From NCBI RefSeq assembly GCF_003325475.1, contig NZ_CP029495.1, positions 2,631,353 to 2,695,352 on the forward strand: 64,000 nucleotides of DNA. Direction: 5' to 3'. The stretch comes from Chromobacterium phragmitis (GTDB taxonomy: Bacteria; Pseudomonadota; Gammaproteobacteria; Burkholderiales; Chromobacteriaceae). Shown one piece after another: positions 6,586-53,589 of the stretch. The first letter of the stretch is position 1, and every line of letters starts with the position of its first letter. The translations under genes were made by a program, and so were the position numbers. Under the pieces are notes generated by a model, which saw only the letters and a list, made by a program, of their open reading frames with translations, did not search any database and was not told the origin of the DNA.

Positions 6586-6679
6586 GGAGAAATGGCCGAG
6601 TGGTCGAAGGCACTTCCCTGCTAAGGAAGCATACGGGCTTAAACCTGTATCGAGGGTTCGAATCCCTCTTTCTCCGCCA
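6586..6679 (+). tRNA. tRNA-Ser (anticodon GCT)
   Basis: Cloverleaf with long variable arm, anticodon loop cuGCUaa, T-loop GGTTCGAATCC, 3' CCA encoded. Confidence 0.85.
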
Positions 6680-6685
6680 GATGCC

Positions 6686-6762
6686 GCACCCGTAGCTCAG
6701 TTGGATAGAGTATCTGGCTACGAACCAGAGGGTCGGGCGTTCGAATCGCTCCGGGTGCACCA
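6686..6762 (+). tRNA. tRNA-Arg (anticodon ACG)
   Basis: GCACCCGTAGCTCAGTTGGATAGAGT… with anticodon loop cuACGaa; T-loop GTTCGAATC; CCA encoded. Confidence 0.85.
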
Positions 6763-6766
6763 AGAC

Positions 6767-6841
6767 GTCCCTATAGTTTAGCGGTTAGAACACCGCCCTT
6801 TCACGGCGGTGGCCGGGGTTCGATTCCCCGTGGGGACGCCA
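6767..6841 (+). tRNA. tRNA-Glu (anticodon TTC)
   Basis: GTCCCTATAGTTTAGCGGTTAGAACACC… with anticodon loop cuTTCac; T-loop GGTTCGATTCC; CCA encoded. Confidence 0.85.
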
Positions 6842-6855
6842 GGATTCAGAAAAAG

Positions 6856-6883
6856 CCTCGTATGAAAATACGAGGTTTTTTTT
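6856..6883 (+). terminator. Rho-independent terminator after the + tRNA array
   Basis: Hairpin CCTCGTA-tgaaaa-TACGAGG followed by a T8 tract. Confidence 0.75.
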
Positions 6884-7312
6884 ATCCAGATCAATGACAT
6901 TGGCATTGCGGTTTCGGCATTTTATCTTGTGCTGGTGGTGTCGGACTTTTGATTCGGTTCCAGCCTGGTTTGGCGGCTATGCGGCGGGTGATTGTTGCGC
7001 GCCGCTGATTTCTTTTGGGGTGAGAGCGCGGGTCTGTTGTTTGTGCTTGCTTGTGTTTTGGTCGTCGGGTGTCGGTTGCTGTCGTCCGGTGGGATTTGGC
7101 GTGGCTGCTTGGTGTCATTCTTTGCGTAGTGGCGGATTTGGGTCGGCTTACGATGCTCTTCGGGGTGGTTGTTTCGGTTTTGTGGGGCGGGTGTTGTCAT
7201 TGCCGGTGGTGGCGTTGGATTTGAGATGGGTGTGGGTTGGCGTGGGGATTTGTTTGAGCGTGGAGTGCGCGGCGAGTCTGTCATTCTGAGGTGGGGTGCG
7301 GCGGCGAGGGGA

Positions 7313-7343
7313 AAGAAAAAAGCCTCGTATTTTCATACGAGGC
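7313..7343 (-). terminator. Rho-independent terminator after the - tRNA array (mirror copy of the + terminator)
   Basis: Hairpin GCCTCGTA-tttca-TACGAGGC with a T-tract on the minus strand. Confidence 0.7.
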
Positions 7344-7356
7344 TTTTTCTGAATCC

Positions 7357-7431
7357 TGGCGTCCCCACGGGGAATCGAACCCCGGCTACCGCCGTGAAAG
7401 GGCGGTGTTCTAACCGCTAAACTATAGGGAC
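7357..7431 (-). tRNA. tRNA-Glu (anticodon TTC)
   Basis: Reverse complement of the + strand tRNA-Glu with one substitution. Confidence 0.85.
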
Positions 7432-7434
7432 AGC

Positions 7435-7511
7435 TGGTGCACCCGGAGCGATTCGAACGCCCGACCCTCTGGTTCGTAGCCAGATACTCTATCCAACTGA
7501 GCTACGGGTGC
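7435..7511 (-). tRNA. tRNA-Arg (anticodon ACG)
   Basis: Reverse complement identical to the + strand tRNA-Arg. Confidence 0.85.
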
Positions 7512-7516
7512 AGCTT

Positions 7517-7591
7517 TGGCGTCCCCACGGGGAATCGAACCCCGGCTACCGCCGTGAAAGGGCGGTGTTCTAACCGCTAAACTATAGGGAC
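7517..7591 (-). tRNA. tRNA-Glu (anticodon TTC), second copy
   Basis: Same sequence as 7357-7431. Confidence 0.85.
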
Positions 7592-7600
7592 GCTGAGTTG

Positions 7601-7677
7601 TGGTGCACCCGGAGCGATTCGAACGCCCGACCCTCTGGTTCGTAGCCAGATACTCTATCCAACTGAGCTACGGGTGC
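7601..7677 (-). tRNA. tRNA-Arg (anticodon ACG), second copy
   Basis: Same sequence as 7435-7511. Confidence 0.85.
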
Positions 7678-43853: not shown

Positions 43854-44005
43854 TTCTGTAGCGGGATTGTCGCCATCTCAAATGGCATATCGGTGGATTG
43901 TAACGGGTTTGGAAAGTCACTGGCGCAATAGCCGCGGCAAGCGCTTGACCCTGTAGCCGCTACAGGGATTTCAATCTCCATTCCACAGGATGCGGGAGAA
44001 GCAAG

Positions 44006-44266
44006 ATGAGTCATTTCGGCAAATGGTTTGGGCGGCGTCATGATCGCCATGCAAGCGGCCACCACGGGCCGCGCGGGCGGGAAAGCGGATATCCGGCGGC
44101 CGCGCCGGCGATCGCATGCCCCGCTTGCCGCCAGGGCAACGATTCCGGCGCCAGGTTCTGCCAGCATTGCGGTTCCAGCCTTGCGCCTAGCCGTTGCGGC
44201 CAATGCGGGCGCGAGGCGGATGCGGCTGCAAGATTCTGTTCCCAGTGCGGGCAGGTTTTGAGATAG
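44006..44266 (+). CDS. Double zinc-ribbon small protein
   Basis: 86 aa with CPACRQ…CQHCG and CGQCG…CSQCG pairs. SD-like GGAGAAG upstream. Confidence 0.5.
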   Translation: MSHFGKWFGRRHDRHASGHHGPRGRESGYPAAAPAIACPACRQGNDSGARFCQHCGSSLAPSRCGQCGREADAAARFCSQCGQVLR

Positions 44267-44474
44267 CGGCAAGGCGGGGATTAGGCACAGAGGCTTGATA
44301 TTTTCATTTAATTCTAATAGGTATATTAACCAATTGAATGGCAATTCGGCACGTTCTACGCTGGAGATTGACATGCTATAAGCATGAATTGGCGCAGGCG
44401 CCTCTCCGACGGCAGCCGGGATGGCATCTCGCGACAACCATTCATTGCGTCATCGCTAGCCTAGGAGAAGGATC

Positions 44475-44873
44475 ATGGCCATTCTATCCTTGCATGCCTC
44501 GCAACAGCGGCCGCGCCCAGGCTTTCTTGCCGGCCTGTCCCGGCTGTGGCGCCATCGCCGGGCCGAGGCGGACACCGCGGCCGCGCCCCGCAAGGCGAAC
44601 CTGAGCGACATCACCGCCGGCGAGGCCCAGGCCGTGATCGGCGAATGGCTGAAAGCCGGCCGCCTCACCCCTGCCGAAAGCCGCAGCCTGGGCCTGGCGA
44701 TGACCATCCGCGTGCTCAACATCAGCTATGGCCATTCGATACCGGAGCGCTTCGATCTGGTGGCGGAAACGCTGAGCACGCTGGAAGGCAGCCGGAATAT
44801 CGGCTGCTGGGACCAGGTGCAGGCCTTGAGCCACTGCCTGGAGGTGATGCGCGCCTACCAGGAGCAAGCCTGA
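44475..44873 (+). CDS. Hypothetical protein
   Basis: 132-aa ORF with GC3-rich codon usage and GGAGAAGG SD 6 nt upstream. No recognisable motifs. Confidence 0.45.
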   Translation: MAILSLHASQQRPRPGFLAGLSRLWRHRRAEADTAAAPRKANLSDITAGEAQAVIGEWLKAGRLTPAESRSLGLAMTIRVLNISYGHSIPERFDLVAETLSTLEGSRNIGCWDQVQALSHCLEVMRAYQEQA

Positions 44874-45357
44874 TCGGGCTTGGCCATCGGTATGCCGGCG
44901 GGCGCGCAGGGTGTCGGCCTTATCGCGCATGCGCGCCCCGGCAATAGGGCTGAATGATGGATATCACCAGCGTCTTTGCCTCTGCGGACAACTGATTGGA
45001 CCGGATAGCGCGGCGCGGCTTTCCGCGGCGGGAGGCCGGCAGCCCCTGTCGCGCAAGGCAGGCGAATCTGTCGATGCGCCAGGACTCAGAGTGGCAAACA
45101 AAAATCCTGATGCTGCGTCGCGCCGGCTTGGCGTACGCCTTGTGTTGCGCTGCGTCGGCGCGCCATGCCTCAGACGTAAAACTGAATTTTGTAAGCCGCT
45201 CTAAGCACAAACCGCATGAAGACGCCGTTTCCTATCTTTCCGTCCTAAAGCACGGCTTGCCGAATTTCTATTTGGACTAGAGTGGCGGGGCTCAAGCAAG
45301 AATGCCGAGCGTCAAGATCGCAAGCCCGCATGCAGCTTCCACTCAAGGAGTGACGAT

Positions 45358-46449
45358 ATGTCATCGCAATTTCATGGCCTGGCTGTAGGAAACGGAAATA
45401 GCAATTATCTGCAGGTGCTGGGATTGGCCAATTTCACGGACGCCGCCTATCTGACGGACTGGCAGGACTCCAGCGGCAACTGGCACGCCGGCTTCGCCTT
45501 GCCGGTTCCGTCCGATTATCCGAAGGGGCACTTTTTCCAACTGACGACCGGCATCGGCAACAGCAGCTATCTGCAGGTATTGGGCGCGGGCGAGGACGGC
45601 AACCCCTATCTGGTGTCATGGCAGGACGGCGGCGGCAGCTGGCACGGCGGCATGCCGCTTCCCAAGCCCAGCGGCTACAGCGGCGGCCCCCTGATCACCG
45701 GCTCCGGCAACAGCAACTACCTGCAGGTGATCGGCGCGCGGGTGGAAACCACGCCTTATCTGGTGGCTTGGCAGGACAATAGCGGCAACTGGCACGCGGG
45801 CATGCCGCTGCCCAACCCCAGCGGCTATGCCGGCGGTTTCCAGCAATTGGCCACCGGCAACGGCAACGACCACTACTTGCAAGTGGTGGGCGTGGGCAAT
45901 GACGGCAACGCCTATCTGGTGAACTGGCAGGACAACAGCGGCAGCTGGCACCCTGGCTTCGCGCTGCCCAAGCCCAGCGGCTACAACGGCACCTTCACGC
46001 AGCTGGCCACCGGCGTGGGCAACAGCAATTATCTGCAGGTGCTGGGCATCGGCACCGACGGCAACGCCTATCTGGTGGCCTGGCAGGACAACGGCGGCAA
46101 CTGGCACCCTGGCTTCGCGCTGCCCAAGCCCAGCGGTTACAACGGCACTTTCGCCAAGTTGGTCACCGGCATCGGCAACAGCAATTACCTGCAGGTGTTC
46201 GGCATCGGCGGCAATGGGACGGCCTATCTGATCTCGTGGCAGGACAACGGCGGCAACTGGCACGGCGGCCTGACGCTGCCGCAGCCGTCCGGCTACAGCG
46301 GCAGCTTCTCGCAATTGGCCGCCGGCAATGGCAACAACCATTATCTGCAGGTGGTGGGCTCCGACGCGCAAGGCAATGTCTACCTGGTGTCGTGGCAAGA
46401 CGCCGAGGGCAAGTGGCACGCCGGTTTCGAGCTGCCGAAAACGGCTTGA
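45358..46449 (+). CDS. Eight-repeat beta-propeller lectin-like protein (AAL/RSL-type fucose-lectin-like blades)
   Basis: 363 aa consisting almost entirely of eight tandem repeats of about 45 aa: [L]-x-TG-x-GNSNYLQV-x-G-x-G-x-DGN-x-YLV-x-WQDN-x-GNWH-x-G-x-x-LP-x-PSGY-x-G. The W-D-x-x-G-x-W-x-x-G core resembles blade motifs of Aleuria/Ralstonia fucose lectins. No signal peptide. Confidence 0.7.
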   Translation: MSSQFHGLAVGNGNSNYLQVLGLANFTDAAYLTDWQDSSGNWHAGFALPVPSDYPKGHFFQLTTGIGNSSYLQVLGAGEDGNPYLVSWQDGGGSWHGGMPLPKPSGYSGGPLITGSGNSNYLQVIGARVETTPYLVAWQDNSGNWHAGMPLPNPSGYAGGFQQLATGNGNDHYLQVVGVGNDGNAYLVNWQDNSGSWHPGFALPKPSGYNGTFTQLATGVGNSNYLQVLGIGTDGNAYLVAWQDNGGNWHPGFALPKPSGYNGTFAKLVTGIGNSNYLQVFGIGGNGTAYLISWQDNGGNWHGGLTLPQPSGYSGSFSQLAAGNGNNHYLQVVGSDAQGNVYLVSWQDAEGKWHAGFELPKTA

Positions 46450-46501
46450 CGCCAAGCTGAGCCAAGGATTCCGGTTGGCGCGGACCGGCCGGATCGAACG
46501 C

Positions 46502-46537
46502 CAGGCCCTCCTTGATCGGGAGGGCCTGTTGTTTTGA
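46502..46537 (+). terminator. Rho-independent terminator after the beta-propeller gene
   Basis: CAGGCCCTCC-ttgatcg-GGAGGGCCTG followed by TTGTTTT. Confidence 0.75.
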
Positions 46538-46552
46538 AGCGATTCGGGCGGT

Positions 46553-46972
46553 TCAGTCCTGGGCCGGGCCTTGCTTTTTGGGAAGCCGGGGATCCATGAA
46601 GTCCCAGGGCGCGGCGCTGGCCACGTGGAAATCCAGCTTGGGCGCGTAGCGCGAGGCATCATCCAGCGTGCCGGCCTTGATGCCCAGCATGCCGGGGAAG
46701 CGGCTGAACCTGGCGAACAATTGCGAGCCGCAATGGGGACAAAAGCCCCGGCCGTGGGTATGGCCGCTATCCGCGGTGGTTTCGAAATACTTGGCCGCGC
46801 CGTGGATCGCAACGCTCGACTCGGGAAACAGCATGGCGGGGATGAACGCGCCGCCCGAACTTCTCTGGCAGTCCTTGCAATGGCAGTTTCCCGCGAATAA
46901 CGGCTCGGCGTCCACGACATAGCGGATTTCGCCGCAAAGGCACTGCCCGGTGTATTGGCAACTCATGCACAA
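46553..46972 (-). CDS. GFA-family (CENP-V/glutathione-dependent formaldehyde-activating enzyme-like) zinc protein
   Basis: 139 aa with the Cys-rich GFA pattern (CLCGEI…CHCKDCQRSSG…CPHCGS). Confidence 0.75.
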   Translation of the reverse strand: MCMSCQYTGQCLCGEIRYVVDAEPLFAGNCHCKDCQRSSGGAFIPAMLFPESSVAIHGAAKYFETTADSGHTHGRGFCPHCGSQLFARFSRFPGMLGIKAGTLDDASRYAPKLDFHVASAAPWDFMDPRLPKKQGPAQD

Positions 46973-47243
46973 CTCCCTGCTGATTGGTCATGGCCATTGC
47001 GTCGGCACCGCGTATCAATGGTGGCTGGCCGATGCGGCAAACCCGTTTCGAGAGCAGTCAGCCTGCGCGCGGAGCGGCGACGAATGGCGAAAGCAGACTA
47101 TATCCATTTGGAATTGCGCTGTGAAGCGCTTGGCGGGCAGCCGCCGCATTTCGGCAAGACGCGGCCGGGGCCGGATTGGCCTGGCGGGCGTCATGAGCCC
47201 GCGGCGCGGGTGATGCCATGGGCCGCCAAGCCCGGACTGGCGA

Positions 47244-47768
47244 TCATGCCCACCAGGTGAATCGCTGGTTGGCTCCGCCGTGGCAATCCCACAGAATCAG
47301 CGGCGTGCCATTGCGGGTATTGCCGCCTTCCGCATCCAGGCACAGCCTGTTCAGCTTGCTGCGCATCATGCCGTTGGCCCATTCCCACTGCTGGTTCCTG
47401 CCGCCATGGCAGGCATAGGCGATGACTTTGGCGCCCCGGCGGGTATCGCCGCCGGCCACATCCAGGCACAGGTTGCCGGATTTGAGCTGGCCATTGACCA
47501 GGCGGAAGCGCTGATTGCCGCCGCCATGGCAATCCCATAGCTGCAGCGGCGCATTGGCGGCGCTGCCGCCGGCAAGGTCCAGGCAGCGGCCGCCGCTGGC
47601 CAGCAGCATGCGCGGCTGAGTTTCCGGCTGGTACGGTTTCCTGGCGGAGGAATTGGCCGGGTAGCCGTAGGGGTAGGCGGCGCCGGCTTGCATGTTTTGA
47701 TTGGCCAGGGTGCGGCAGCCGCTGCTGGCAAGCGCGGCTCCCATCATGACGAAGGCGATGAGTTTCAT
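47244..47768 (-). CDS. Lipoprotein with ricin-B (beta-trefoil) lectin domain
   Basis: Signal + lipobox (ASSGC), three (QxW)-type subrepeats (LQLWDCHGGGNQRF; IAYACHGGRNQQWEW; LILWDCHGGANQRFTW). Confidence 0.75.
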   Translation of the reverse strand: MKLIAFVMMGAALASSGCRTLANQNMQAGAAYPYGYPANSSARKPYQPETQPRMLLASGGRCLDLAGGSAANAPLQLWDCHGGGNQRFRLVNGQLKSGNLCLDVAGGDTRRGAKVIAYACHGGRNQQWEWANGMMRSKLNRLCLDAEGGNTRNGTPLILWDCHGGANQRFTWWA

Positions 47769-47982
47769 TTCAGGCTGTCTGTATTTTGTTGGACAGCGAG
47801 TGTAAAAGCCATTGCCTGCCCAGTCCGTGGCGCCGCTTGGCGATTGTGTAACCGCGTTTGACCGGTGCGCGCGGCGGGGAGGAGGCGGGACGGCGGAAAG
47901 CCTGGCAGGGCAAGGCTTGGAGGCGAGTAAACGGAATTTACAATTCAGAAGACGCAGTCTTGAAGCGAGCGGGCCTCCACCC

Positions 47983-48700
47983 GATCAAAAACAGCCTGCC
48001 GCTGGGAAGCGGACAGGTTGACGGTGTTTATGGCGCGTGATTTAGAGGACGCGGGTGAGGAGCGTCAGCGACTCGCCCATGCGTTTGTCCAGCGGCTCTA
48101 GCAATTCCTTGATGCGGCTGGGCTGCAGGCTGGCGTCGTATAAGCGTAGGGTGCAATACCCGGCTTGAAACGATTGGATGTAACTACCTTTCAGCCGGGC
48201 ATTGCACCACTTTGGCATTCCGCGAAATCAAAACCAGCCTGCCGCTGGGAAGCGGACAGGCTGTCGGTGTTTATGGCGCGTGATTTATTAGAGGACGCGG
48301 GTGAGCAGCGACAGAGACTCGCCCATGCGTTTGTCCAGCGGCGCCAGCAACTCGGTGATGCGGCTGGAGGGCAGACGGACGTCGTAAGCGTAGGGTGCAA
48401 TACCCGGCTTGAAACGATTGGATGCAGCCATCTTGCAGCCGGGCATGGCAGCGTCTTGGCATTCCGCGAAATCAAAAACAGCCTGCCGCTAAGAAGCGGA
48501 CAGGCTGTCGGTGTTTTGGCGCGTGGTTTAGAGGACGCGGGTGAGCAGCGACAGCGACTCCCCCATGCGTTTGTCCAGCGGCGCCAGCAACTCGGTGATG
48601 CGGCTGGAGGGCAGGCGCACGTCATCGCCCAGGCAAGCGAGCAGTTCGATGACTGACTGCAAACCCAACTGGCCGTGGGCGAGGTGGCAGATGGGCTCCA
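47983..48700. repeat. About 2.9 tandem copies of a roughly 240-bp unit: terminator hairpin + last 30 codons of the downstream gene + stem-loop spacer
   Basis: Stop-codon landmarks at 48042, 48288 and 48528 (periods 246 and 240 bp). Each unit carries CAGCCTGCCGCTGGGAAGCGGACAGGCTG hairpin + A-tract (a terminator on the minus strand). Copies are 85-95% identical. Confidence 0.8.
48288..48431 (-). CDS. Possible 47-aa mini-ORF created by the middle repeat copy (new N-terminus fused to the conserved C-terminal 31 aa)
   Basis: ATG at 48431 (minus strand) reads MAASNRFKPGIAPYAYDVRLPSSRITELLAPLDKRMGESLSLLTRVL*. The C-terminal 31 aa (DVRLPSS…LTRVL) are identical to those of the 48528-48824 gene. No obvious SD. 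Could equally be a silent relic. Confidence 0.25.
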   Translation of the reverse strand: MAASNRFKPGIAPYAYDVRLPSSRITELLAPLDKRMGESLSLLTRVL

Positions 48701-48824
48701 CCACCGCCTGCTCGATGTCCCGGCATAAATGCGCCACGCGCGCGGCCGGCTCTCTTACCTTTGCTTGGTCTTTGCTGGCCAATTGTTCTTGCAAGGCGGC
48801 AAAGGCTTCGTGCAGCCGGGTCAT
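48528..48824 (-). CDS. Hypothetical small protein (98 aa from MTRLHEAF…)
   Basis: ORF with GC3-rich codons whose 3' end is the source (or target) of the upstream tandem repeat. Start placed at the internal Met. Confidence 0.5.
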   Translation of the reverse strand: MTRLHEAFAALQEQLASKDQAKVREPAARVAHLCRDIEQAVVEPICHLAHGQLGLQSVIELLACLGDDVRLPSSRITELLAPLDKRMGESLSLLTRVL

Positions 48825-49801
48825 GGCCAGCAGGCTGGGCGGATGGGTGGGGACTTGATTGTGCAGCAGCCAGCGGCTGCGGGCGGGATGACGGTTGTTC
48901 AGGGAAAACGCGAGATGCGATGAACTGCGGGTGATGCTAGGCATGGCAAAACCCTCCTGGATAGGTGCTTAACCCTGCCAACCCCAACGCCAAGTAGGGG
49001 TGGCAGGCACATGGCGGGATTGGCGTACCGATCCAGGAGCGGCGCATCATAGATGCTCCCACCATGGCCCGCCATAGAGGACGTGCAATGGTGTACGGAC
49101 GCGACAAGGCCCAGCCTTGCACAGAAGTCCGCCTGAATGCGGGACGCCAATCCCGGTGCCGCTATTGAACGGCACGATTGAGATTATCCGGCTGGAAGGC
49201 TTGCTAGGCAAGCAATTGGGGCTGGAATAGGGTGTGCTTTGGGGCAGTACGTAGAATCCGCTGCGCGGCTGATGGTTTGGATTGCCGGGGTTGCCCGGCG
49301 GCAGGCTTGAAGGGATTGGGGCGCGTCGCAAACGCGCTTGCGTTTTGCCAGCGATGAATAGGGCATGACATTTTGCCGTGGCTTGCTTAATCGGTAGCTG
49401 AACCGAACCGACTTGCCCCCATCCCATCAGCGCAAGCCGACTTCGGAGCCATTTTCAAGGTTTTAAGACGCCGGTTTGTTCGACGTCGCGCGACGGTAGC
49501 GCGCGGCTAGTTCCGGCGGCTCCTTGAAAATGGCTTCGGAGGCGGGGTTTCGCAGCGCTGTTGGGTCGCCTTTTCTTTCGTCCATTTCTTTTGGCGAAGC
49601 AAAAGAAATGGACCCGTCCAGCCGGGCGGAACCGGCACTTAACGGTCAGTCCGCGAAGCGGACACAAACTAATCTGTATTACGTGGTAGCCGTTTGACCT
49701 TGGTGGCTCAGTCGCGATTTGCGGACTTTAAACGAATTGCGAACTTCAAGCTTTGCTAGGCTAGTGAATGAATTATAATTTTATTGAGTGAAAAGGTGAA
49801 A

Positions 49802-49829
49802 TAAAAAAGCACTTGTTTCTCAAGTGCTT
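49802..49829 (-). terminator. Rho-independent terminator ending the AT-rich island operon
   Basis: AAGCACTTG-agaaa-CAAGTGCTT + T-tract on the minus strand. Confidence 0.75.
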
Positions 49830-49860
49830 CCGAGTGCGGAGCTTTACTTTATTGGGTTGG

Positions 49861-50190
49861 CTAACTATTTTTAATGAGATCTTTCTTTTCAACTTCTTGG
49901 CTTTCAATATTTCTTTTTGTCTCTTTGAAAGCCTGAACAAAACTGTTAATGAGTTTTTCTCTCTTGTTATTCGTTGGTGACAGTTTTTCTCTGCATGATG
50001 TTTTTTCTATTTTCCACCCAGTCCTTATTTTTTCTTTTTTGGTGGCTGGTAAAGAGCTGTTCTCTATTGATCTAAATGATTTAACTTGAGGTAGCGATGA
50101 GCGTAGAGCTTTGTCTAGCTCTATAATAAATATTCTTTCTGACTCGGTTGGAGCTCTAAGTTTATTAATTTTTGCCATTTTTATCTCCAT
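49861..50190 (-). CDS. Lys/Glu-rich hypothetical protein, distal gene of the AT-rich island
   Basis: 109 aa, strongly AT-biased codons, 15 bp downstream of the 570-aa gene on the same strand. Confidence 0.5.
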   Translation of the reverse strand: MEIKMAKINKLRAPTESERIFIIELDKALRSSLPQVKSFRSIENSSLPATKKEKIRTGWKIEKTSCREKLSPTNNKREKLINSFVQAFKETKRNIESQEVEKKDLIKNS

Positions 50191-50205
50191 AATGAGCTGT
50201 GGAAA

Positions 50206-51918
50206 TTAACCTAGCCACTGAGCTGGATTGCTAATTTTCAGTGGCTCAGCCCCCATAAGTTCAAATCTGACAGCATTGTCATCAGTACGATTATCCATCG
50301 TTACCTGTTGACTCTGCATTGCCGCTAAAGATAAAAGAAAGCCATGATGGCGATCTGGCAATATCAAATGTTGAGTCTTTCCCGTGTGGTGCTTCCAAAG
50401 GGCGACGGAGCGAACTCCGTTAGTTTCTTGTCGATTTGATCTATCTACCATCGCGGCAGAAGTAACACTTAAAATTGCTGATCCGGGGTCATCAGCTAGT
50501 ACTGTTGCATAACGAGCCGGCCAGCGTGTTGTGAGCTGTGGCCCATCCATCAGTAATGCTATCACGAGGTTGGGTCCGATAGCTCGTACAGCAGGAAGTG
50601 CGGGATCGTTACGTGCCAAATCCTCACATACCAAGACGGCTATACACGCATCTCTCTGGATTGTATAGAACGGTAGATGTCTTTCTGCCACGTCAATGTG
50701 CTCCCACCAGTCAACATTACTGTCTGCCGGGAATGATGAAAAGTTGTAACGTTGCGTTTGTGCAACATCAAGCTTCCATCTGTGATGCTTTGAGTGTTCG
50801 TATTGAAAAAATTCCTCATTATCAACAAGGAAATATGACATTGCTTTGTTTTTTGGGATTTTATTTGGAACGCTACTTATAACACCTGAAATTAAAATTC
50901 TAAGGCCATTTATATATTCATCCCTAGCTAAAATACGAGCGAGCTCATATGAAACCTCTTCAGTCAGTGAACACTCTGGGAAGATAACACAATCAATTTT
51001 TTTGTAGTGTCTTCTTGATTCAAGTAGAAGAGGTTTGACAAGATCATTGTATATATTCTTGGCAATTTCACATGGTTGCTCTTTTCCAAAACCTGGTATC
51101 CAAGATGGGTCTAGTTCAAAGTAGCCAAATTTTTTAATATTTTTCTTACTCGCTTTGGGGGGACATCTTGGTCTTATTGCAGTCGCTTTCATTTCAAATG
51201 GATACGGGATGAATAGAGCATTAAATCTTGTTTCGTCAGATAATAGAAAGTTTTCAGGGCTTAAAGATTCGACATTTTGCAATGAGTTCCAAGAAATTTT
51301 CAGCTTAGGCTGAGCTTCATGAAGTGCAAGGTGATGACTTAAAGATCGAATTGAAAATCCTACGGATGGGCATATTGACTTTGGTGTGACTACAGCTCTT
51401 TGGGGAGGTATTGCGTAGCATAAGGAGAATGGAAAGTATGGAGGCCTAAGGCATTCAAGTTTTTGACTTGTAATTGCCTGTAAGTTATCTATTTTCATTA
51501 ATTTTGGGAAGAGCAGTCCGCTAAAAACGGAGTCTTGAAAGTCTAATCCCCAACCTAACCCTGCTGAAGCTTCGTCAGAGCAAGTAAATAAAAAATGTAT
51601 TTCTGAGACTAATTTCTCATCTCTATATATTTGATCAATTGCAGTTAATCTTTTCTTGTAGATGTAAGACCAGCTTCTTTTTATTTCTGAAGGAGGAGAG
51701 AAATTATCTTTCCATTCTGAGGCTACGGATGATATTGACTTCCTGCGAGTAAACTTTTTGGGATTTAAAAGGACGGCTTTTTCCATTATGGTTGCAGTAA
51801 AAGCAAACGTATCTGATGGCCAAGATGGACAATTTTCTACGGATTTTCCAAAGTTAAAATTTTCATTACTTTGTGTCCCATTTGGGAATAGAAATTCTAT
51901 CATGTCTTGTATGTTCAT
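50206..51918 (-). CDS. Large hypothetical protein of the AT-rich island; C-terminal half has a candidate nitrilase/CN-hydrolase-like Glu-Lys-Cys triad
   Basis: 570 aa uninterrupted ORF in a region of about 35-40% G+C (estimate by eye). Motifs VIFPE (E315), YEHSKHH (K377) and VLVCEDL (C431), spaced as in the nitrilase superfamily. N-terminal 300 aa show no recognisable domain. Confidence 0.55.
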   Translation of the reverse strand: MNIQDMIEFLFPNGTQSNENFNFGKSVENCPSWPSDTFAFTATIMEKAVLLNPKKFTRRKSISSVASEWKDNFSPPSEIKRSWSYIYKKRLTAIDQIYRDEKLVSEIHFLFTCSDEASAGLGWGLDFQDSVFSGLLFPKLMKIDNLQAITSQKLECLRPPYFPFSLCYAIPPQRAVVTPKSICPSVGFSIRSLSHHLALHEAQPKLKISWNSLQNVESLSPENFLLSDETRFNALFIPYPFEMKATAIRPRCPPKASKKNIKKFGYFELDPSWIPGFGKEQPCEIAKNIYNDLVKPLLLESRRHYKKIDCVIFPECSLTEEVSYELARILARDEYINGLRILISGVISSVPNKIPKNKAMSYFLVDNEEFFQYEHSKHHRWKLDVAQTQRYNFSSFPADSNVDWWEHIDVAERHLPFYTIQRDACIAVLVCEDLARNDPALPAVRAIGPNLVIALLMDGPQLTTRWPARYATVLADDPGSAILSVTSAAMVDRSNRQETNGVRSVALWKHHTGKTQHLILPDRHHGFLLSLAAMQSQQVTMDNRTDDNAVRFELMGAEPLKISNPAQWLG

Positions 51919-52021
51919 AATTTCTCTCTCAACAATCTCTTCCCGAAATTTCTATACCCGTATAGGTATATGGATTTTTTACCGTGGTGTGACTTTATAA
52001 GTAGGTATTTTAATGAATGAA

Positions 52022-52080: not shown

Positions 52081-53589
52081 TTACTCCGGACGCATATGCG
52101 GGAACAAGATTACATCTCGGATAGACGGCGCATCCGTCAACAACATCACCAAACGGTCGATGCCGATGCCGCAACCACCAGTCGGCGGCAGGCCGTATTC
52201 CATCGCGCGGATGTAGTCGGCGTCGTAGTGCATCGCCTCGTCGTCGCCGGCGTCCTTCTGCGCCACTTGCGCCTGGAAGCGCGCGGCCTGGTCTTCCGGA
52301 TCGTTCAACTCGGAATAGCCGTTGGCGTGCTCGCGGCCGACGATGAACAGCTCGAAACGCTCGGTCAGGCCCGGCTGGGTGTCGGAGCCGCGTGCCAGCG
52401 GGGAGACTTCCACCGGGTAGTCGATGATGAAGGTCGGGTTCCACAGCAGCGACTCGGCGCATTCTTCGAACAGCGCCAGCTGCAGGCTGCCCAGGCCCGG
52501 CGCCGGGGGCAGCTTGCCGCCCAGGCGCTTGATCTCGCTGGCCACCCAGGCGGAATCGGACAGTTGCGCGTCGGTGTATTGCGGGTTGTAGTGCTTGATC
52601 GCTTCCACGATGGTGAAACGGTCGAACGGTTTGCCCAGGTCCACTTCCTTGCCTTGGTAGGTCACGGTGGTGGCGCCGCAGGAAACCAGCGCGCATTCGC
52701 GGATGATGGTTTCGGTCATCTCCATCATGCGCTGGTAGTCGCTGTACGCTTCGTAGAACTCGATCATGGTGAACTCGGGGTTGTGGCGCGTGCTCATCCC
52801 CTCGTTGCGGAAGTTGCGGTTGATCTCGAACACGCGTTCCAGGCCGCCCACCACCAGGCGCTTCAGGTACAGCTCCGGGGCGATGCGCAGGTAGAGCGGC
52901 ATGTCCAGGGCGTTGTGGTGGGTGACGAAGGGCTTGGCCGACGCGCCGCCCGGGATCGGGTGCATCATCGGGGTTTCCACTTCCAGGTAGCCTTCGCCCA
53001 CCATCACGTCGCGCACTTTCTGCACGATCTTGGAGCGCTTGATGAAGGTGTCGCGGCTTTCCTCGCTCATGATGAGGTCGGCGTAGCGCTGGCGGTACTT
53101 GGTTTCCTGATCGGCGATGCCGTGGAATTTTTCCGGCAGCGGACGGATGTTCTTGGACAGCATGCGCACTTCGGTGGCTTGCACGGTCAGTTCGCCGGTC
53201 TTGGTCTTGAACAGCAGGCCCTTGACGGCGATGATGTCACCCAGGTCCCAGCGCTTGAAGTCGGCGTAGACGTCTTCGCCCACGTTGTCGCGGGAGATGA
53301 AGGCCTGGATGCGGCCGCTCACGTCTTGCAGCGTGGCGAAGCTGGCTTTGCCCATCACACGTTTAAGCATCATGCGGCCGGCGACGGCGACTTCGATTTT
53401 CTCGGCTTCCAGCGCTTCCGCTTCTTTGGCGGCGTGGTCGTCCTGCAGCGGTTTGGCGAAGTGGCTGCGTTTGAAGTCGTTGGGGTAGGCGATGCCTTTT
53501 TCGCGGATCGCCTGCAGTTTCAGGCGGCGTTCCGCCATGATCTGGTTTTCGTCTTGGCTTTGCGCCTGTGCTTGTTCGTGATCAGACAT
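52081..53589 (-). CDS. lysS: Lysyl-tRNA synthetase (class II)
   Basis: 502 aa. N-terminal OB anticodon-binding domain and class II motifs 1-3 (…FRNEG…; …[15 protein letters not shown]…). Confidence 0.95.

What the first reader, a model, noticed from the sequence alone, without database searches (positions are those of the whole stretch)
47983..48824. Tandem 240-bp repeats reiterating a gene's terminal 30 codons plus its terminator, generating a potential 47-aa mini-ORF
Three successive units (stops at 48042, 48288, 48528) each contain the minus-strand terminator hairpin, the last 30 or so codons of the 98-aa gene at 48528-48824, and a spacer that itself forms an imperfect 15-bp stem-loop (GTGCAATACCCGGCT…AGCCGGGCATTGCAC). 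The copies are diverged (about 85-95%). The proximal copy has a 2-bp indel. The middle copy preserves the frame and acquires an ATG, giving MAASNRFKPGIAPYAY fused to the identical C-terminal 31 residues. This resembles an array of 3'-end cassettes or orphan modules rather than a simple recent duplication. Why the terminator and C-terminal peptide are reiterated together is unexplained.
Basis: seen in the sequence. Interest (0 to 1): 0.55.

Follow-up and report, generated by a model that had tools for sequence, protein, structure and literature searches.

The report
Reiterated 3' ends of vioS
Downstream of vioS, the gene for the quorum-sensing brake of Chromobacterium, the last 31 codons, the terminator and a 59-base palindrome are repeated head to tail; the extra copies look like decaying leftovers that recombination keeps copying, deleting and patching, not a working gene array.

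Summary
Window 47984-48623 holds 2.6 head-to-tail units of about 244 bp. Each unit is the last 31 codons of a minus-strand gene, its intrinsic terminator and a spacer with a 59-nt palindrome.

The gene is not 98 aa. It is the 138-aa DUF1484 protein VioS (48944..48528), the published inhibitor of the quorum-sensing receptor CviR. It has a strong ribosome-binding site and a phage-type C4 antisense RNA in its leader. The window is Chromobacterium phragmitis.

The same three-copy array is present in three other C. phragmitis assemblies, so it is not an assembly artefact. Related arrays with 0-2 extra units follow vioS copies in at least seven Chromobacterium species. The palindrome and terminator occur nowhere else in the window, and in a scan of 185,579 species genomes only next to vioS. 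It is therefore not a generic REP or MITE element.

Relatives differ by clean one-unit gains or losses, by a crossover inside a unit and by a short gene-conversion patch. Extra copies lack ribosome-binding sites, sit behind terminators, use inconsistent upstream frames, and carry mostly non-synonymous private changes and weakening terminators.

Best reading: a locus-specific tandem partial duplication kept by unequal crossing-over and gene conversion. The origin and role of the palindrome remain unexplained.

The parts
48528..48944 (-). vioS orthologue (138 aa, DUF1484), the expressed gene whose 3' end is reiterated
   Evidence: Pfam PF07363, E 5e-52 over residues 33-137. AGGAGG lies 7 nt before ATG 48944. 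92% identical to Chromobacterium DUF1484 proteins. The exact sequence is AXE30700.1 / WP_114061794.1 of C. phragmitis. VioS function is taken from PMC5339254 and PMC11019928.
48528..48623 (-). Unit copy C, coding end (codons 108-138 plus stop); part of the functional gene. Encodes the linker and last helix.
   Evidence: Alignment A1. The AlphaFold model has helices at 39-56, 60-105 and 113-137. A crossover point against strain CP029554.1 lies at about 48561.
48471..48527 (-). Terminator C: stem 48479-48507 followed by a T-run
   Evidence: Folding energy -25.3 kcal/mol, z -5.2.
48384..48470 (-). Spacer 1 with a degenerate copy of the 59-nt palindromic element (48394-48452), ending in CCTACGCTTAC
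   Evidence: model R1, 104 bits. The fold is weak, z -1.0.
48288..48383 (-). Unit copy B, coding end. It has 4 synonymous differences from C. With spacer 1 it forms the 47-aa ORF (from 48431) or 52-aa ORF (from 48446).
   Evidence: RefSeq annotates the 47-aa product as a DUF1484 family protein, WP_232538474.1. No ribosome-binding site is visible in the sequence.
48227..48287 (-). Terminator B: stem 48235-48263; the T-run is interrupted (GGTTTTGATTT)
   Evidence: Folding energy -22.1 kcal/mol, z -3.4.
48140..48226 (-). Spacer 2 with the intact 59-nt palindromic element (48150-48208). The 15-16-bp stem has one G.U pair on the vioS-sense strand and is followed by CTAC.
   Evidence: Inverted repeat I18. 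Folding energy -37.9 kcal/mol, z -5.1. Model R1 scores 110 bits.
48042..48139 (-). Unit copy A, coding end. 14/96 differences from C and a 2-bp insertion at the junction (48140-48141). Part of a 58-aa ORF that starts in another frame.
   Evidence: Three of its four private changes are non-synonymous.
47984..48041 (-). Terminator A: stem 47992-48020 with one mismatch. The array ends right after TTTTTGAT.
   Evidence: Folding energy -17.9 kcal/mol, z -2.1. Homology with the other units stops at 47984.
48996..49079 (-). C4-type antisense RNA in the vioS leader (context, not part of the repeat)
   Evidence: Rfam RF01695, 53.4 bits against a gathering score of 45. Its segment 49027-49039 is complementary to the vioS ribosome-binding region 48954-48966.
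49136..49211 (-). Promoter-like site (49211-49183) and an a1b1-like upstream target of the C4 RNA
   Evidence: TTGCCT-17-GATAAT. RF03163 gives a weak hit, E 0.048, below its gathering score. A 16-nt complementarity links 49140-49155 and 49015-49030.
47244..47768 (-). Ricin-type lectin gene, the first gene after the array (variable cargo in this interval)
   Evidence: Pfam Ricin_B_lectin, E 4e-28. Present in C. phragmitis and absent from the syntenic C. violaceum locus L003.

Best explanation
The array is a locus-specific tandem partial duplication of one contiguous piece of DNA. That piece is the last 31 codons of vioS (its C-terminal helix), its intrinsic terminator and a 59-nt palindromic element just downstream. 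It arose in an ancestor of several Chromobacterium species.

Since then the roughly 150-bp direct repeats have acted as substrates for homologous recombination in three ways:
- Unequal crossing-over adds or removes whole units.
- Short-patch gene conversion copies sequence between the expressed gene end and the silent copies.
- Crossovers inside the repeats swap whole upstream haplotypes and help exchange small accessory genes downstream.

The extra copies are not expressed genes. They look gene-like because they were copied or patched recently from functional alleles, and they decay afterwards. The coding end and the terminator are repeated together only because they are physically adjacent inside the duplicated segment.

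Shown: the architecture, its distribution, the unit-length gain or loss, the conversion patch, the crossover point and the decay. Inferred: the mechanism (RecA-type recombination between repeats) and the lack of expression.
For: 1. Real repeat with three coding-end/terminator copies and two spacers.
2. Confined to the vioS 3' flank.
- There are no other copies of the palindrome or the terminator in the 64-kb window.
- A scan of 185,579 species genomes found the palindrome in Chromobacterium only next to VioS-coding sequence or, at L028 where tblastn found none, a decayed start of the vioS 3' end.
- A covariance model found 21 sense-strand copies in 203 kb of Chromobacterium loci. None were new. 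All lie at the palindrome sites mapped earlier, downstream of vioS or beside a remnant of its 3' end.
3. Old and variable.
- There are 0 to 2 extra units after vioS copies in C. amazonense, piscinae, vaccinii, subtsugae, sphagni, violaceum, alticapitis and phragmitis.
- Four C. phragmitis assemblies share the three-copy array.
4. Recombination is seen directly.
- C. phragmitis CP029554.1 and C. vaccinii differ after vioS-1 by exactly one unit of terminator, palindrome and coding end.
- Of the 48 differences between the window and CP029554.1 over 4.7 kb, 19 lie in 48561-48713. Homology ends at 48719, so a crossover lies inside copy C.
- Against CP158160.1 the flanks differ by 0.3-0.4%, but vioS and the array differ by 3-17%.
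- In CP158160.1 the distal silent copy shares a private patch of about 35 nt (GKRLSESLT) with that strain's own functional gene end.
5. The copies decay.
- Terminator stability falls with distance from the gene: -25.3, -22.1 and -17.9 kcal/mol.
- Private substitutions are 9 non-synonymous to 5 synonymous in extra copies, against 3 to 11 in functional copies (Fisher two-sided p 0.054).
- Copy A has a 2-bp indel.
6. There is no sign of expression signals.
- No promoter-like site lies in the array on the gene strand.
- No AGGAGG-type site precedes any mini-ORF start.
- ORF starts and frames differ between copies and strains.
Against: - All full-length extra coding ends found (seven in five species) keep the frame and the stop codon. 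Pairwise pN/pS among several of them is as low as between functional genes, 0-0.26. I attribute this to recent copying from functional alleles, but selection on a peptide would give the same pattern.
- The private-substitution test rests on 28 changes and is only borderline.
- The palindrome is more conserved across species than a neutral relic should be. Its 3' arm plus CCTAC is nearly invariant in 16 distinct copies.
- In C. subtsugae the palindrome is reiterated without the coding end, bracketing small gene segments. A plain duplication model does not predict this.
- No expression data were available.
Confidence: 0.6

Rival explanations
1. Cassette platform. The 59-nt palindrome, possibly with the start of the coding-end copy, is a recombination site for an unidentified recombinase that acts on folded single-stranded DNA or on a specific site. 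The array would then be the footprint of repeated capture and loss of small gene cassettes downstream of vioS. The 86-nt spacers would be empty cassettes.
For: - Accessory genes sit between unit copies: a 141-aa membrane protein flanked by direct repeats of about 400 bp in C. violaceum and a 161-aa ORF in C. vaccinii and C. phragmitis.
- Three palindromes in direct orientation bracket two segments of 600-750 bp in C. subtsugae.
- The palindrome has a constant length of 58-60 nt, a nearly invariant 3' arm and a REP-like CTAC tail. The junction always lies 10 nt after the stem.
Against: - No integrase, transposase or RAYT domain appears in the Pfam lists of any flank.
- Cargo boundaries are not at one fixed position. 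In L003 the copy after the cargo starts 34 nt further upstream in vioS.
- Unit gains and losses are fully explained by homologous recombination between 150-bp repeats.
- There is no attC-type core, by inspection of the sequences.
Confidence: 0.12
2. Silent donor cassettes. The extra coding ends are kept as a reservoir that, by gene conversion, varies the C-terminal helix of VioS and so tunes its interaction with CviR.
For: - A conversion patch is shared between a silent copy and the functional gene end within one strain. It changes DKRMGES to GKRLSES.
- The silent copies carry alternative residues (ITELLAP versus IKELLEP) that also occur in functional alleles of other species.
- The repeated piece corresponds exactly to one structural element: the linker plus the last helix, residues 113-137.
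Against: - The middle copy in the window encodes exactly the same 31 residues as the gene, so it offers no variation.
- The direction of conversion is unknown.
- Silent copies accumulate damaging private changes.
- The W and CP158160.1 vioS alleles differ by 34 nucleotide substitutions but only 13 amino-acid changes (my count from the sequences). That is ordinary purifying selection, not diversification.
Confidence: 0.08
3. The mini-ORFs (47/52 and 58 aa) are translated and give single-helix VioS-like peptides that modulate CviR or VioS.
For: - The frames are open to the native stop codon in all full copies.
- pN/pS is low between several copies.
- RefSeq annotates them as DUF1484 family proteins in C. 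phragmitis, C. vaccinii and C. piscinae.
Against: - No ribosome-binding site precedes any start codon.
- The ORFs lie behind a -25 kcal/mol terminator, and no promoter-like site is present.
- The N-terminal part is read in different frames in copies A and B, and is 37 aa in other strains.
- Close strains differ by K/E, V/A and R/L replacements.
- Private changes are mostly non-synonymous.
Confidence: 0.08
4. RNA-level role. The tandem terminators and the palindrome insulate the downstream lectin gene from vioS transcription, stabilise the vioS 3' end, or act as a decoy for a regulator of the vioS mRNA.
For: - Three successive terminator hairpins lie on the gene strand.
- The palindrome has its one wobble pair (G.U) on the vioS-sense strand in 15 of 16 copies.
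Against: - The second and third terminators are weaker, with a broken T-run or a mismatched stem.
- The palindrome next to the real gene is the degenerate one.
- There is no covariation.
- The C4 RNA has no special complementarity to the units, z about 0.
- C. amazonense manages with one unrelated terminator.
Confidence: 0.07
5. A generic genome-wide REP or MITE element, or an assembly artefact.
For: The palindrome has a REP-like GTAG head on the plus strand.
Against: - There are no other copies in 64 kb.
- The genome scan found 1-3 loci per genome, all with vioS sequence or a decayed vioS 3'-end remnant beside them.
- The copies are 4-15% diverged from each other, and the array is identical in number in four assemblies, including complete genomes CP029554.1 and CP158160.1.
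Confidence: 0.02

Closest known systems
Tandem segmental duplications and minisatellite-like arrays that evolve in concert through unequal crossing-over and gene conversion
   Same: - Head-to-tail units of constant period.
- Copy number differs between relatives by whole units.
- Mosaic conversion patches.
- Non-functional copies decay.
   Different: - The unit here starts inside a gene and carries its terminator and a conserved palindrome.
- It has persisted across a genus at one locus.
- Accessory genes are interleaved in some species.
Duplicated gene 3' ends left by integrative elements that target the end of a gene. Examples from my own knowledge are icd and its partial copy flanking prophage e14 or phage 21 in E. 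coli, and tRNA 3' ends at genomic islands.
   Same: - Diverged partial copies of a gene's 3' end lie downstream of the intact gene.
- They sometimes bracket foreign genes.
   Different: - No integrase was found in any flank.
- In the window the DNA between copies is only 86 nt.
- The copies are in tandem with a fixed period.
Silent-cassette gene conversion systems, such as pilE/pilS of Neisseria (from my own knowledge)
   Same: Promoterless partial copies share sequence patches with the expressed gene.
   Different: - There are only one or two copies, and one encodes the same amino acids as the gene.
- No recombination-initiating element is known.
- There is no evidence of programmed or frequent switching.
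REP/BIME elements and integron attC sites
   Same: An imperfect palindrome with a conserved GTAG/CTAC head, in constant orientation, bracketing small gene segments in C. subtsugae.
   Different: - It is not dispersed, with 1-3 loci per genome.
- At 59 nt it is longer than typical REPs.
- No RAYT or IntI gene lies nearby, and there is no GTTRRRY core.
The P1/P7 immI module (C4 antisense RNA, icd, ant); applies to the gene's leader, not to the repeat
   Same: - An Rfam C4 match lies above the gathering score.
- The RNA is complementary to the ribosome-binding site of the next gene and to an upstream a1b1-like site.
   Different: - The downstream gene is vioS, a chromosomal quorum-sensing anti-activator, not icd/ant.
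- No phage genes lie around it.
- tblastn found no VioS relatives in the phage or plasmid collections.

Membership tests
Tandem partial gene duplication evolving by unequal crossing-over and gene conversion | Head-to-tail copies with a constant period, well beyond chance | tested here: met
   Tandem Repeats Finder: period 244, 2.6 copies, score 1006. Spacing 246 and 240 bp.
Tandem partial gene duplication evolving by unequal crossing-over and gene conversion | Relatives differ by whole-unit gains or losses whose junctions lie in the repeat | tested here: met
   L029 and L034 differ by one unit after vioS-1. There are 0-2 extra units across species.
Tandem partial gene duplication evolving by unequal crossing-over and gene conversion | Conversion tracts or mosaicism between copies within a genome | tested here: met
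   L035 copies A and C share a private patch of about 35 nt. Divergence in the array is 10-40 times that of the flanks within the species.
Tandem partial gene duplication evolving by unequal crossing-over and gene conversion | Dependence on homologous recombination (RecA) | not testable with these tools
   Needs genetics.
REP/BIME (RAYT-associated) elements | Short imperfect palindrome with a conserved GTAG/CTAC head | tested here: met
   CTAC follows the 3' arm in 15 of 16 distinct copies.
REP/BIME (RAYT-associated) elements | Many copies dispersed through intergenic regions of the genome | tested here: not met
   There are no other copies in 64 kb. The genome scan found 1-3 loci per genome, all with vioS sequence or a decayed vioS 3'-end remnant beside them. 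The covariance model found no new copies in 203 kb. Caveat: the genome scan needed exact matches to both arms.
REP/BIME (RAYT-associated) elements | A cognate RAYT (Y1 transposase) gene in the genome | not tested
   Whole genomes could not be searched. None appears in the flanks examined.
Integron cassette array | An intI integrase and attI next to the array | tested here: not met
   No integrase domain appears in any Pfam list of the flanks.
Integron cassette array | attC sites with R''/L''/L'/R' boxes and a GTTRRRY core | tested here: not met
   Inspection of 16 aligned copies shows the arms GGTGCAATGCCCGGC and GCCGGGTATTGCACC and no GTTRRRY core.
Integrative-element att duplication of a gene 3' end | Partial copy of the target gene's 3' end at the far side of inserted DNA | tested here: inconclusive
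   This holds for the cargo in L003 and L034. In the window the insert between copies is an 86-nt spacer.
Integrative-element att duplication of a gene 3' end | An integrase encoded in the inserted DNA | tested here: not met
   None was found in any locus.
Small protein gene (the 47/52/58-aa ORFs) | Translation signals: a ribosome-binding site and a start codon conserved in relatives | tested here: not met
   No Shine-Dalgarno-like sequence precedes ATG 48431, 48446 or 48218. Starts and frames differ between copies and strains.
Small protein gene (the 47/52/58-aa ORFs) | Purifying selection on its own lineage | tested here: inconclusive
   Pairwise pN/pS is low, but private substitutions are 9 non-synonymous to 5 synonymous against 3 to 11 in functional copies, p 0.054.
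DUF1484 / VioS | Match to Pfam PF07363 above its cut-off | tested here: met
   175 bits against a cut-off of 21.2.
DUF1484 / VioS | Close sequence relationship to the experimentally studied VioS proteins | tested here: met
   138 aa; in the same 90% cluster as the 138-aa C. violaceum ATCC 12472 DUF1484 protein AAQ58730.1, which I take to be CV_1055/VioS from the accession numbering and did not verify, and as C. subtsugae proteins. Matches the description in PMC5339254.
DUF1484 / VioS | Binding and inhibition of CviR | not testable with these tools
   Shown for the C. violaceum protein by yeast two-hybrid in PMC11019928.
C4 antisense RNA (P1 immI type) | Covariance-model match above the gathering score | tested here: met
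   RF01695 scores 53.4 bits against 45. It is also found upstream of vioS or DUF1484 genes in L001, L002, L003, L005 and L030.
C4 antisense RNA (P1 immI type) | Complementarity to the ribosome-binding region of the downstream gene and to an upstream a1b1 site | tested here: met
   13-nt and 16-nt complementarities. The RF03163 hit itself is below its gathering score.
C4 antisense RNA (P1 immI type) | Processing from the leader and repression of translation in vivo | not testable with these tools
   Needs a Northern blot and reporter assays.

The most novel reading that the evidence does not exclude
The 59-nt palindrome (stem, then CTAC, then a junction exactly 10 nt further on) is the recognition site of an unrecognised recombination system that acts on folded or single-stranded DNA. 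On this reading, the region downstream of vioS is a chromosomal cassette-capture site. It collects small secreted or membrane-protein genes, such as the lectin and the 141-, 161- and 166-aa ORFs. It also shuffles the C-terminal helix and the regulatory module (VitR repressor versus C4 antisense RNA) of the quorum-sensing anti-activator VioS.
Probability: 0.1. Interest if true: 0.65.

Novelty: new member of a known kind. Interest (0 to 1): 0.3.

Why it matters
vioS is the brake on CviR quorum sensing, which controls violacein, proteases, siderophores and virulence-related genes in Chromobacterium. The work here shows three things about its locus.
- The locus is one of the most recombination-prone spots in this genome neighbourhood. 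Within C. phragmitis, vioS and the array differ by 3-17% while the flanks differ by 0.3-0.4%.
- Strains carry one or two vioS copies with two different control modules, a VitR repressor or a phage-type C4 antisense RNA.
- The reiterated 3' ends are where crossovers and conversion patches fall.

This matters for anyone comparing quorum-sensing phenotypes between Chromobacterium strains, and for annotation. RefSeq currently lists the 47-58-aa remnants as DUF1484 family proteins.

The repeat itself is an ordinary kind of genome feature. The C4 RNA in front of vioS is probably the more useful lead. I found no paper in the searchable library that links the two.

Tried and rejected
1. The spacer as a decayed continuation of the vioS coding sequence (codons 78-107). 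A collinear alignment scored no better than shuffles, p about 0.76-0.78. One local similarity of spacer 1 to codons 35-46 (score 30 against 16 +/- 2.3, mononucleotide shuffles) is not shared by the consensus palindrome. I treat it as unresolved.
2. The palindrome as a known RNA. It has no Rfam family. The stem shows no covariation, so RNA and DNA roles cannot be told apart.
3. The units as extra targets or a sponge for the C4 RNA. Duplex energies were at shuffle level, z +0.6 and -0.5.
4. A phage or plasmid origin. There was no DNA match for 47900-49150 in the plasmid collection. tblastn found no VioS relative in the phage or plasmid collections.
5. An internal promoter in the array. None was found on the gene strand.
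6. An uptake-sequence-like over-representation of the terminator arm. There were 7 loose matches against 3.1 expected, and only the three array copies are close matches.
7. A solved structure for VioS. None was found; the best hit had E 0.35. The AlphaFold model is only moderately confident, pLDDT 64.
8. An exact look-up of the 138-aa protein in the contig index failed, although the cluster table does hold it.
Full report
**1. What is in the sequence**

On the minus strand, window 48944..48528 is an ORF of 138 aa. A consensus ribosome-binding site (AGGAGG) lies 7 nt before ATG 48944. Pfam DUF1484 matches residues 33-137 at E 5e-52.

Downstream of the stop at 48528 the layout is:
- a strong intrinsic terminator with its stem at 48479-48507 (-25.3 kcal/mol, z -5.2);
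- an 86-nt spacer;
- a second copy of the last 31 codons, with its stop at 48288;
- a second terminator (stem 48235-48263, -22.1 kcal/mol);
- a second spacer;
- a third copy of the codons, with its stop at 48042;
- a third terminator (stem 47992-48020, -17.9 kcal/mol).

Tandem Repeats Finder reports 47984-48623, period 244, 2.6 copies, 89% matches, score 1006. There are three copies of the coding end plus terminator but only two spacers. Homology stops right after the T-run of the third terminator.

The coding ends differ from the gene's own end at 4 of 96 positions in the middle copy, all synonymous. The distal copy differs at 14 of 96 positions and has a 2-bp insertion at the junction.

Each spacer holds a 59-nt palindrome, GGTGCAATGCCCGGC...GCCGGGTATTGCACC, followed by CTAC. 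It is intact at 48150-48208 (-37.9 kcal/mol, z -5.1) and degenerate at 48394-48452 (z -1.0).

**2. What the gene is**

All homologues found are Chromobacterium DUF1484 proteins. The exact 138-aa sequence is AXE30700.1 / WP_114061794.1 of Chromobacterium phragmitis.

DUF1484 is the domain of VioS, the 138-aa negative regulator of violacein (PMC5339254). VioS binds and inhibits the quorum-sensing receptor CviR. In C. violaceum it is repressed by the divergently transcribed XRE-family regulator VitR (PMC11019928; review PMC13043044).

An AlphaFold model built on 16 homologues (pLDDT 64) shows a disordered N-terminus and three helices at 39-56, 60-105 and 113-137. The reiterated piece, residues 108-138, is therefore the linker plus the last helix.

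**3. Is it an artefact or a generic repeat?**

It is neither.

*Not an artefact.*
- Complete genome CP029554.1 (L029) is collinear with window 48719..44001 at 98.98% identity without gaps, and has the same three copies.
- CP158160.1 and a fourth assembly (L035, L036) also have three copies.

*Not a generic repeat.*
- The palindrome core and the terminator stem occur nowhere else in the 64-kb window.
- An exact-pattern scan for the two palindrome arms in one genome of each of 185,579 species returned 25 stretches. Eight are Chromobacterium loci. The rest are single matches in unrelated metagenome bins with no VioS sequence nearby.
- Seven of the eight Chromobacterium loci hold VioS-coding sequence next to the palindrome. 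The eighth, L028, has only a decayed start of the vioS 3' end beside it.
- A covariance model of the element found 21 sense-strand copies in 203 kb of Chromobacterium loci. None were new, and none lies in the DUF1484 paralogue cluster L030-L032.

**4. Distribution in the genus**

The same architecture follows vioS copies in many species:
- C. sphagni has one full extra unit and one decayed unit.
- The second C. subtsugae locus has one extra unit.
- C. vaccinii has one extra unit after each of two vioS copies.
- C. alticapitis has arrays at both ends of a 10-kb contig and a solo remnant.
- C. violaceum has an extra coding end, terminator and palindrome after a 141-aa cargo gene.
- C. piscinae has the palindrome plus about 20 nt of the coding-end start.
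- C. amazonense has none, and an unrelated terminator.

Small accessory genes are interleaved in several species. The ricin-type lectin that follows the array in C. phragmitis is absent from the syntenic C. violaceum locus. The duplication is therefore old and its copy number varies between species, while staying stable within C. phragmitis.

**5. Evidence for how it evolves**

- *Whole-unit gain or loss.* After the first vioS copy, C. phragmitis CP029554.1 and C. vaccinii differ by exactly one unit of terminator, palindrome and coding end. The coding-end repeat lies at the junction.
- *Crossover inside a unit.* Of the 48 differences between the window and CP029554.1 over 4.7 kb, 19 fall in 48561-48713, and homology ends at 48719. 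Beyond that point the window carries the C4 leader and a full vioS. The other strain carries vitR, a first vioS, a 161-aa ORF and a vioS truncated to 89 aa.
- *Locally elevated divergence.* Against CP158160.1 the lectin and GFA flanks differ by 0.3-0.4%. The leader, vioS and the array differ by 3.8-17%.
- *Gene conversion.* In CP158160.1 the distal silent copy and that strain's own functional gene end share a private patch of about 35 nt. The patch changes DKRMGESLS to GKRLSESLT and is found in no other copy.

**6. Are the extra copies functional?**

All full extra coding ends keep the frame and the stop codon. Pairwise pN/pS among several of them is 0-0.26, as between functional genes.

Substitutions private to a single copy tell a different story. 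They are 9 non-synonymous to 5 synonymous in extra copies, against 3 to 11 in functional copies (Fisher two-sided p 0.054). The shared, gene-like variation was therefore most likely inherited from functional alleles by duplication or conversion, and the copies then drift.

Other observations point the same way:
- Terminators weaken with distance from the gene.
- The distal copy has an indel.
- No mini-ORF start has a ribosome-binding site.
- No promoter-like site lies in the array.
- The part of the ORF upstream of the coding end is read in different frames in different copies, and its length is 47, 52, 58 or 37 aa in different strains.
- Closely related strains differ by amino-acid replacements.

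RefSeq nevertheless annotates these ORFs as DUF1484 family proteins.

**7. Best explanation and what remains open**

The array is a tandem partial duplication of one contiguous segment: the last helix of vioS, its terminator and the adjacent palindrome. Homologous recombination between the roughly 150-bp repeats maintains and reshuffles it. The repeats also serve as crossover points for swapping the vioS haplotype and downstream cargo. The coding end and terminator are reiterated together because they are adjacent in the duplicated DNA, not because they form a module. I put this at about 0.6.

The part it does not explain is the palindrome:
- It has a constant length of 58-60 nt.
- Its 3' arm plus CCTAC is nearly invariant in 16 distinct copies from several species.
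- The junction to the coding-end copy always lies 10 nt after the stem.
- In C. subtsugae, three copies in direct orientation lack the coding end and bracket two segments of 600-750 bp.

These features recall REP elements, attC sites or the ends of single-strand transposons. However, it is not dispersed, no recombinase gene was seen in any flank, there is no covariation, and there is no Rfam family. A cassette-capture role remains possible, at about 0.1.

**8. Context worth recording**

*The C4 antisense RNA leader.*
- The vioS leader contains a C4-type antisense RNA (RF01695, 48996-49079, 53.4 bits against a gathering score of 45).
- One segment of it is complementary to the vioS ribosome-binding region, and another to an upstream a1b1-like site.
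- A promoter-like site lies at 49211-49183. This is the layout of the P1 immI operon (my own knowledge).
- The same RNA precedes vioS or DUF1484 genes in five other loci, and a sixth (L035) has a 100% BLAST match to it.
- No paper in the searchable library links C4 RNA with Chromobacterium.
- The VioS studied in strain ATCC 31532 appears to be the C4-type copy. Its reported 85% identity to CV_1055 fits P0003 at locus L005, by my count. The Tn5 insertions described as lying in the promoter region may therefore lie in this leader.

*The variable island.* The interval between lysS and vioS is variable. In the window it is an AT-rich two-gene insert. Elsewhere it holds a reverse transcriptase, a HigB toxin, an Mrr-type nuclease or a SocA/primase set.

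**9. Verdict**

This is a real, genus-wide, locus-specific repeat of an ordinary evolutionary kind: tandem partial duplication with concerted evolution. I found no description of it in the searchable literature. It is attached to an interesting gene. Interest is 0.3. Novelty: a new member of a known kind.

Noticed in passing
window 48996-49079 (-), with 48954-48966 and 49136-49187: A C4-type antisense RNA (Rfam RF01695) sits in the leader of vioS. It is complementary to the vioS ribosome-binding site and to an upstream a1b1-like site, the layout of the P1 immI operon. The same RNA precedes vioS or DUF1484 genes in L001, L002, L003 (second copy), L005 and L030, and L035 has a 100% BLAST match to it. 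No paper in the searchable library links C4 RNA with Chromobacterium or vioS.
   Followed up: partly
window 48528-48944 (-) versus L029 4144-5094 and L034 2967-3917: vioS comes with two control modules in the genus: a divergent XRE repressor gene (vitR) or a C4 RNA leader. Some strains have both copies. C. phragmitis CP029554.1 has vitR and a first vioS, plus a C4-type copy truncated to 89 aa. The window strain has only the C4-type copy at this locus, and no vitR anywhere in the 64 kb.
   Followed up: partly
window 49700-52000: An AT-rich insert (36-42% G+C against about 64%) lies between lysS (53589..52081) and the vioS leader. It holds a 570-aa ORF with no Pfam match and only a weak nitrilase-like PADLOC hit (E 0.004), plus a 109-aa ORF. 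The same interval holds different genes in every strain examined: a reverse transcriptase, HigB, an Mrr-type nuclease, a SocA/primase set and 780-806-aa ORFs. It looks like a defence-island hotspot.
   Followed up: partly
window 49294-49694: A non-coding block of about 300-400 nt is conserved in most Chromobacterium vioS loci, between the variable island and vioS or vitR. It includes a perfect 14-bp hairpin at 49580-49613. It has no Rfam match.
   Followed up: no
L022 3643-3729: In the second C. subtsugae locus a C4 RNA copy (55 bits) lies directly upstream of the GFA-family gene, with no DUF1484 gene between them. A vioS copy may have been deleted there.
   Followed up: no
L030 5189-6864: The paralogous cluster of three tandem DUF1484 genes in C. 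violaceum (132, 133 and 130 aa) also starts with a C4 RNA. It lies between an AbiTii/DNA-methylase block and a type VI secretion effector cluster. It has no palindrome and no reiterated 3' ends.
   Followed up: no
window 45358-46449 (+) and 47244-47768 (-): A 363-aa protein made of about seven internal repeats (GNSNYLQV...WQD..G.WH) sits near a 174-aa ricin-type lectin with a signal peptide. Both lie just downstream of the array. The repeat protein has only faint Pfam hits.
   Followed up: no
window 6586-7677: A cluster of seven tRNA genes is arranged as Ser-Arg-Glu on the plus strand facing Glu-Arg-Glu-Arg on the minus strand. This is an inverted, partly duplicated arrangement.
   Followed up: no
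window 48288-48431 and 48042-48218 (-): RefSeq annotates the remnants as real proteins: WP_232538474.1 (47 aa) and WP_408608674.1 (58 aa), both named 'DUF1484 family protein'. Similar entries of 47, 52 and 58 aa exist in C. vaccinii and C. piscinae. These are probably annotation of pseudo-3' ends.
   Followed up: yes
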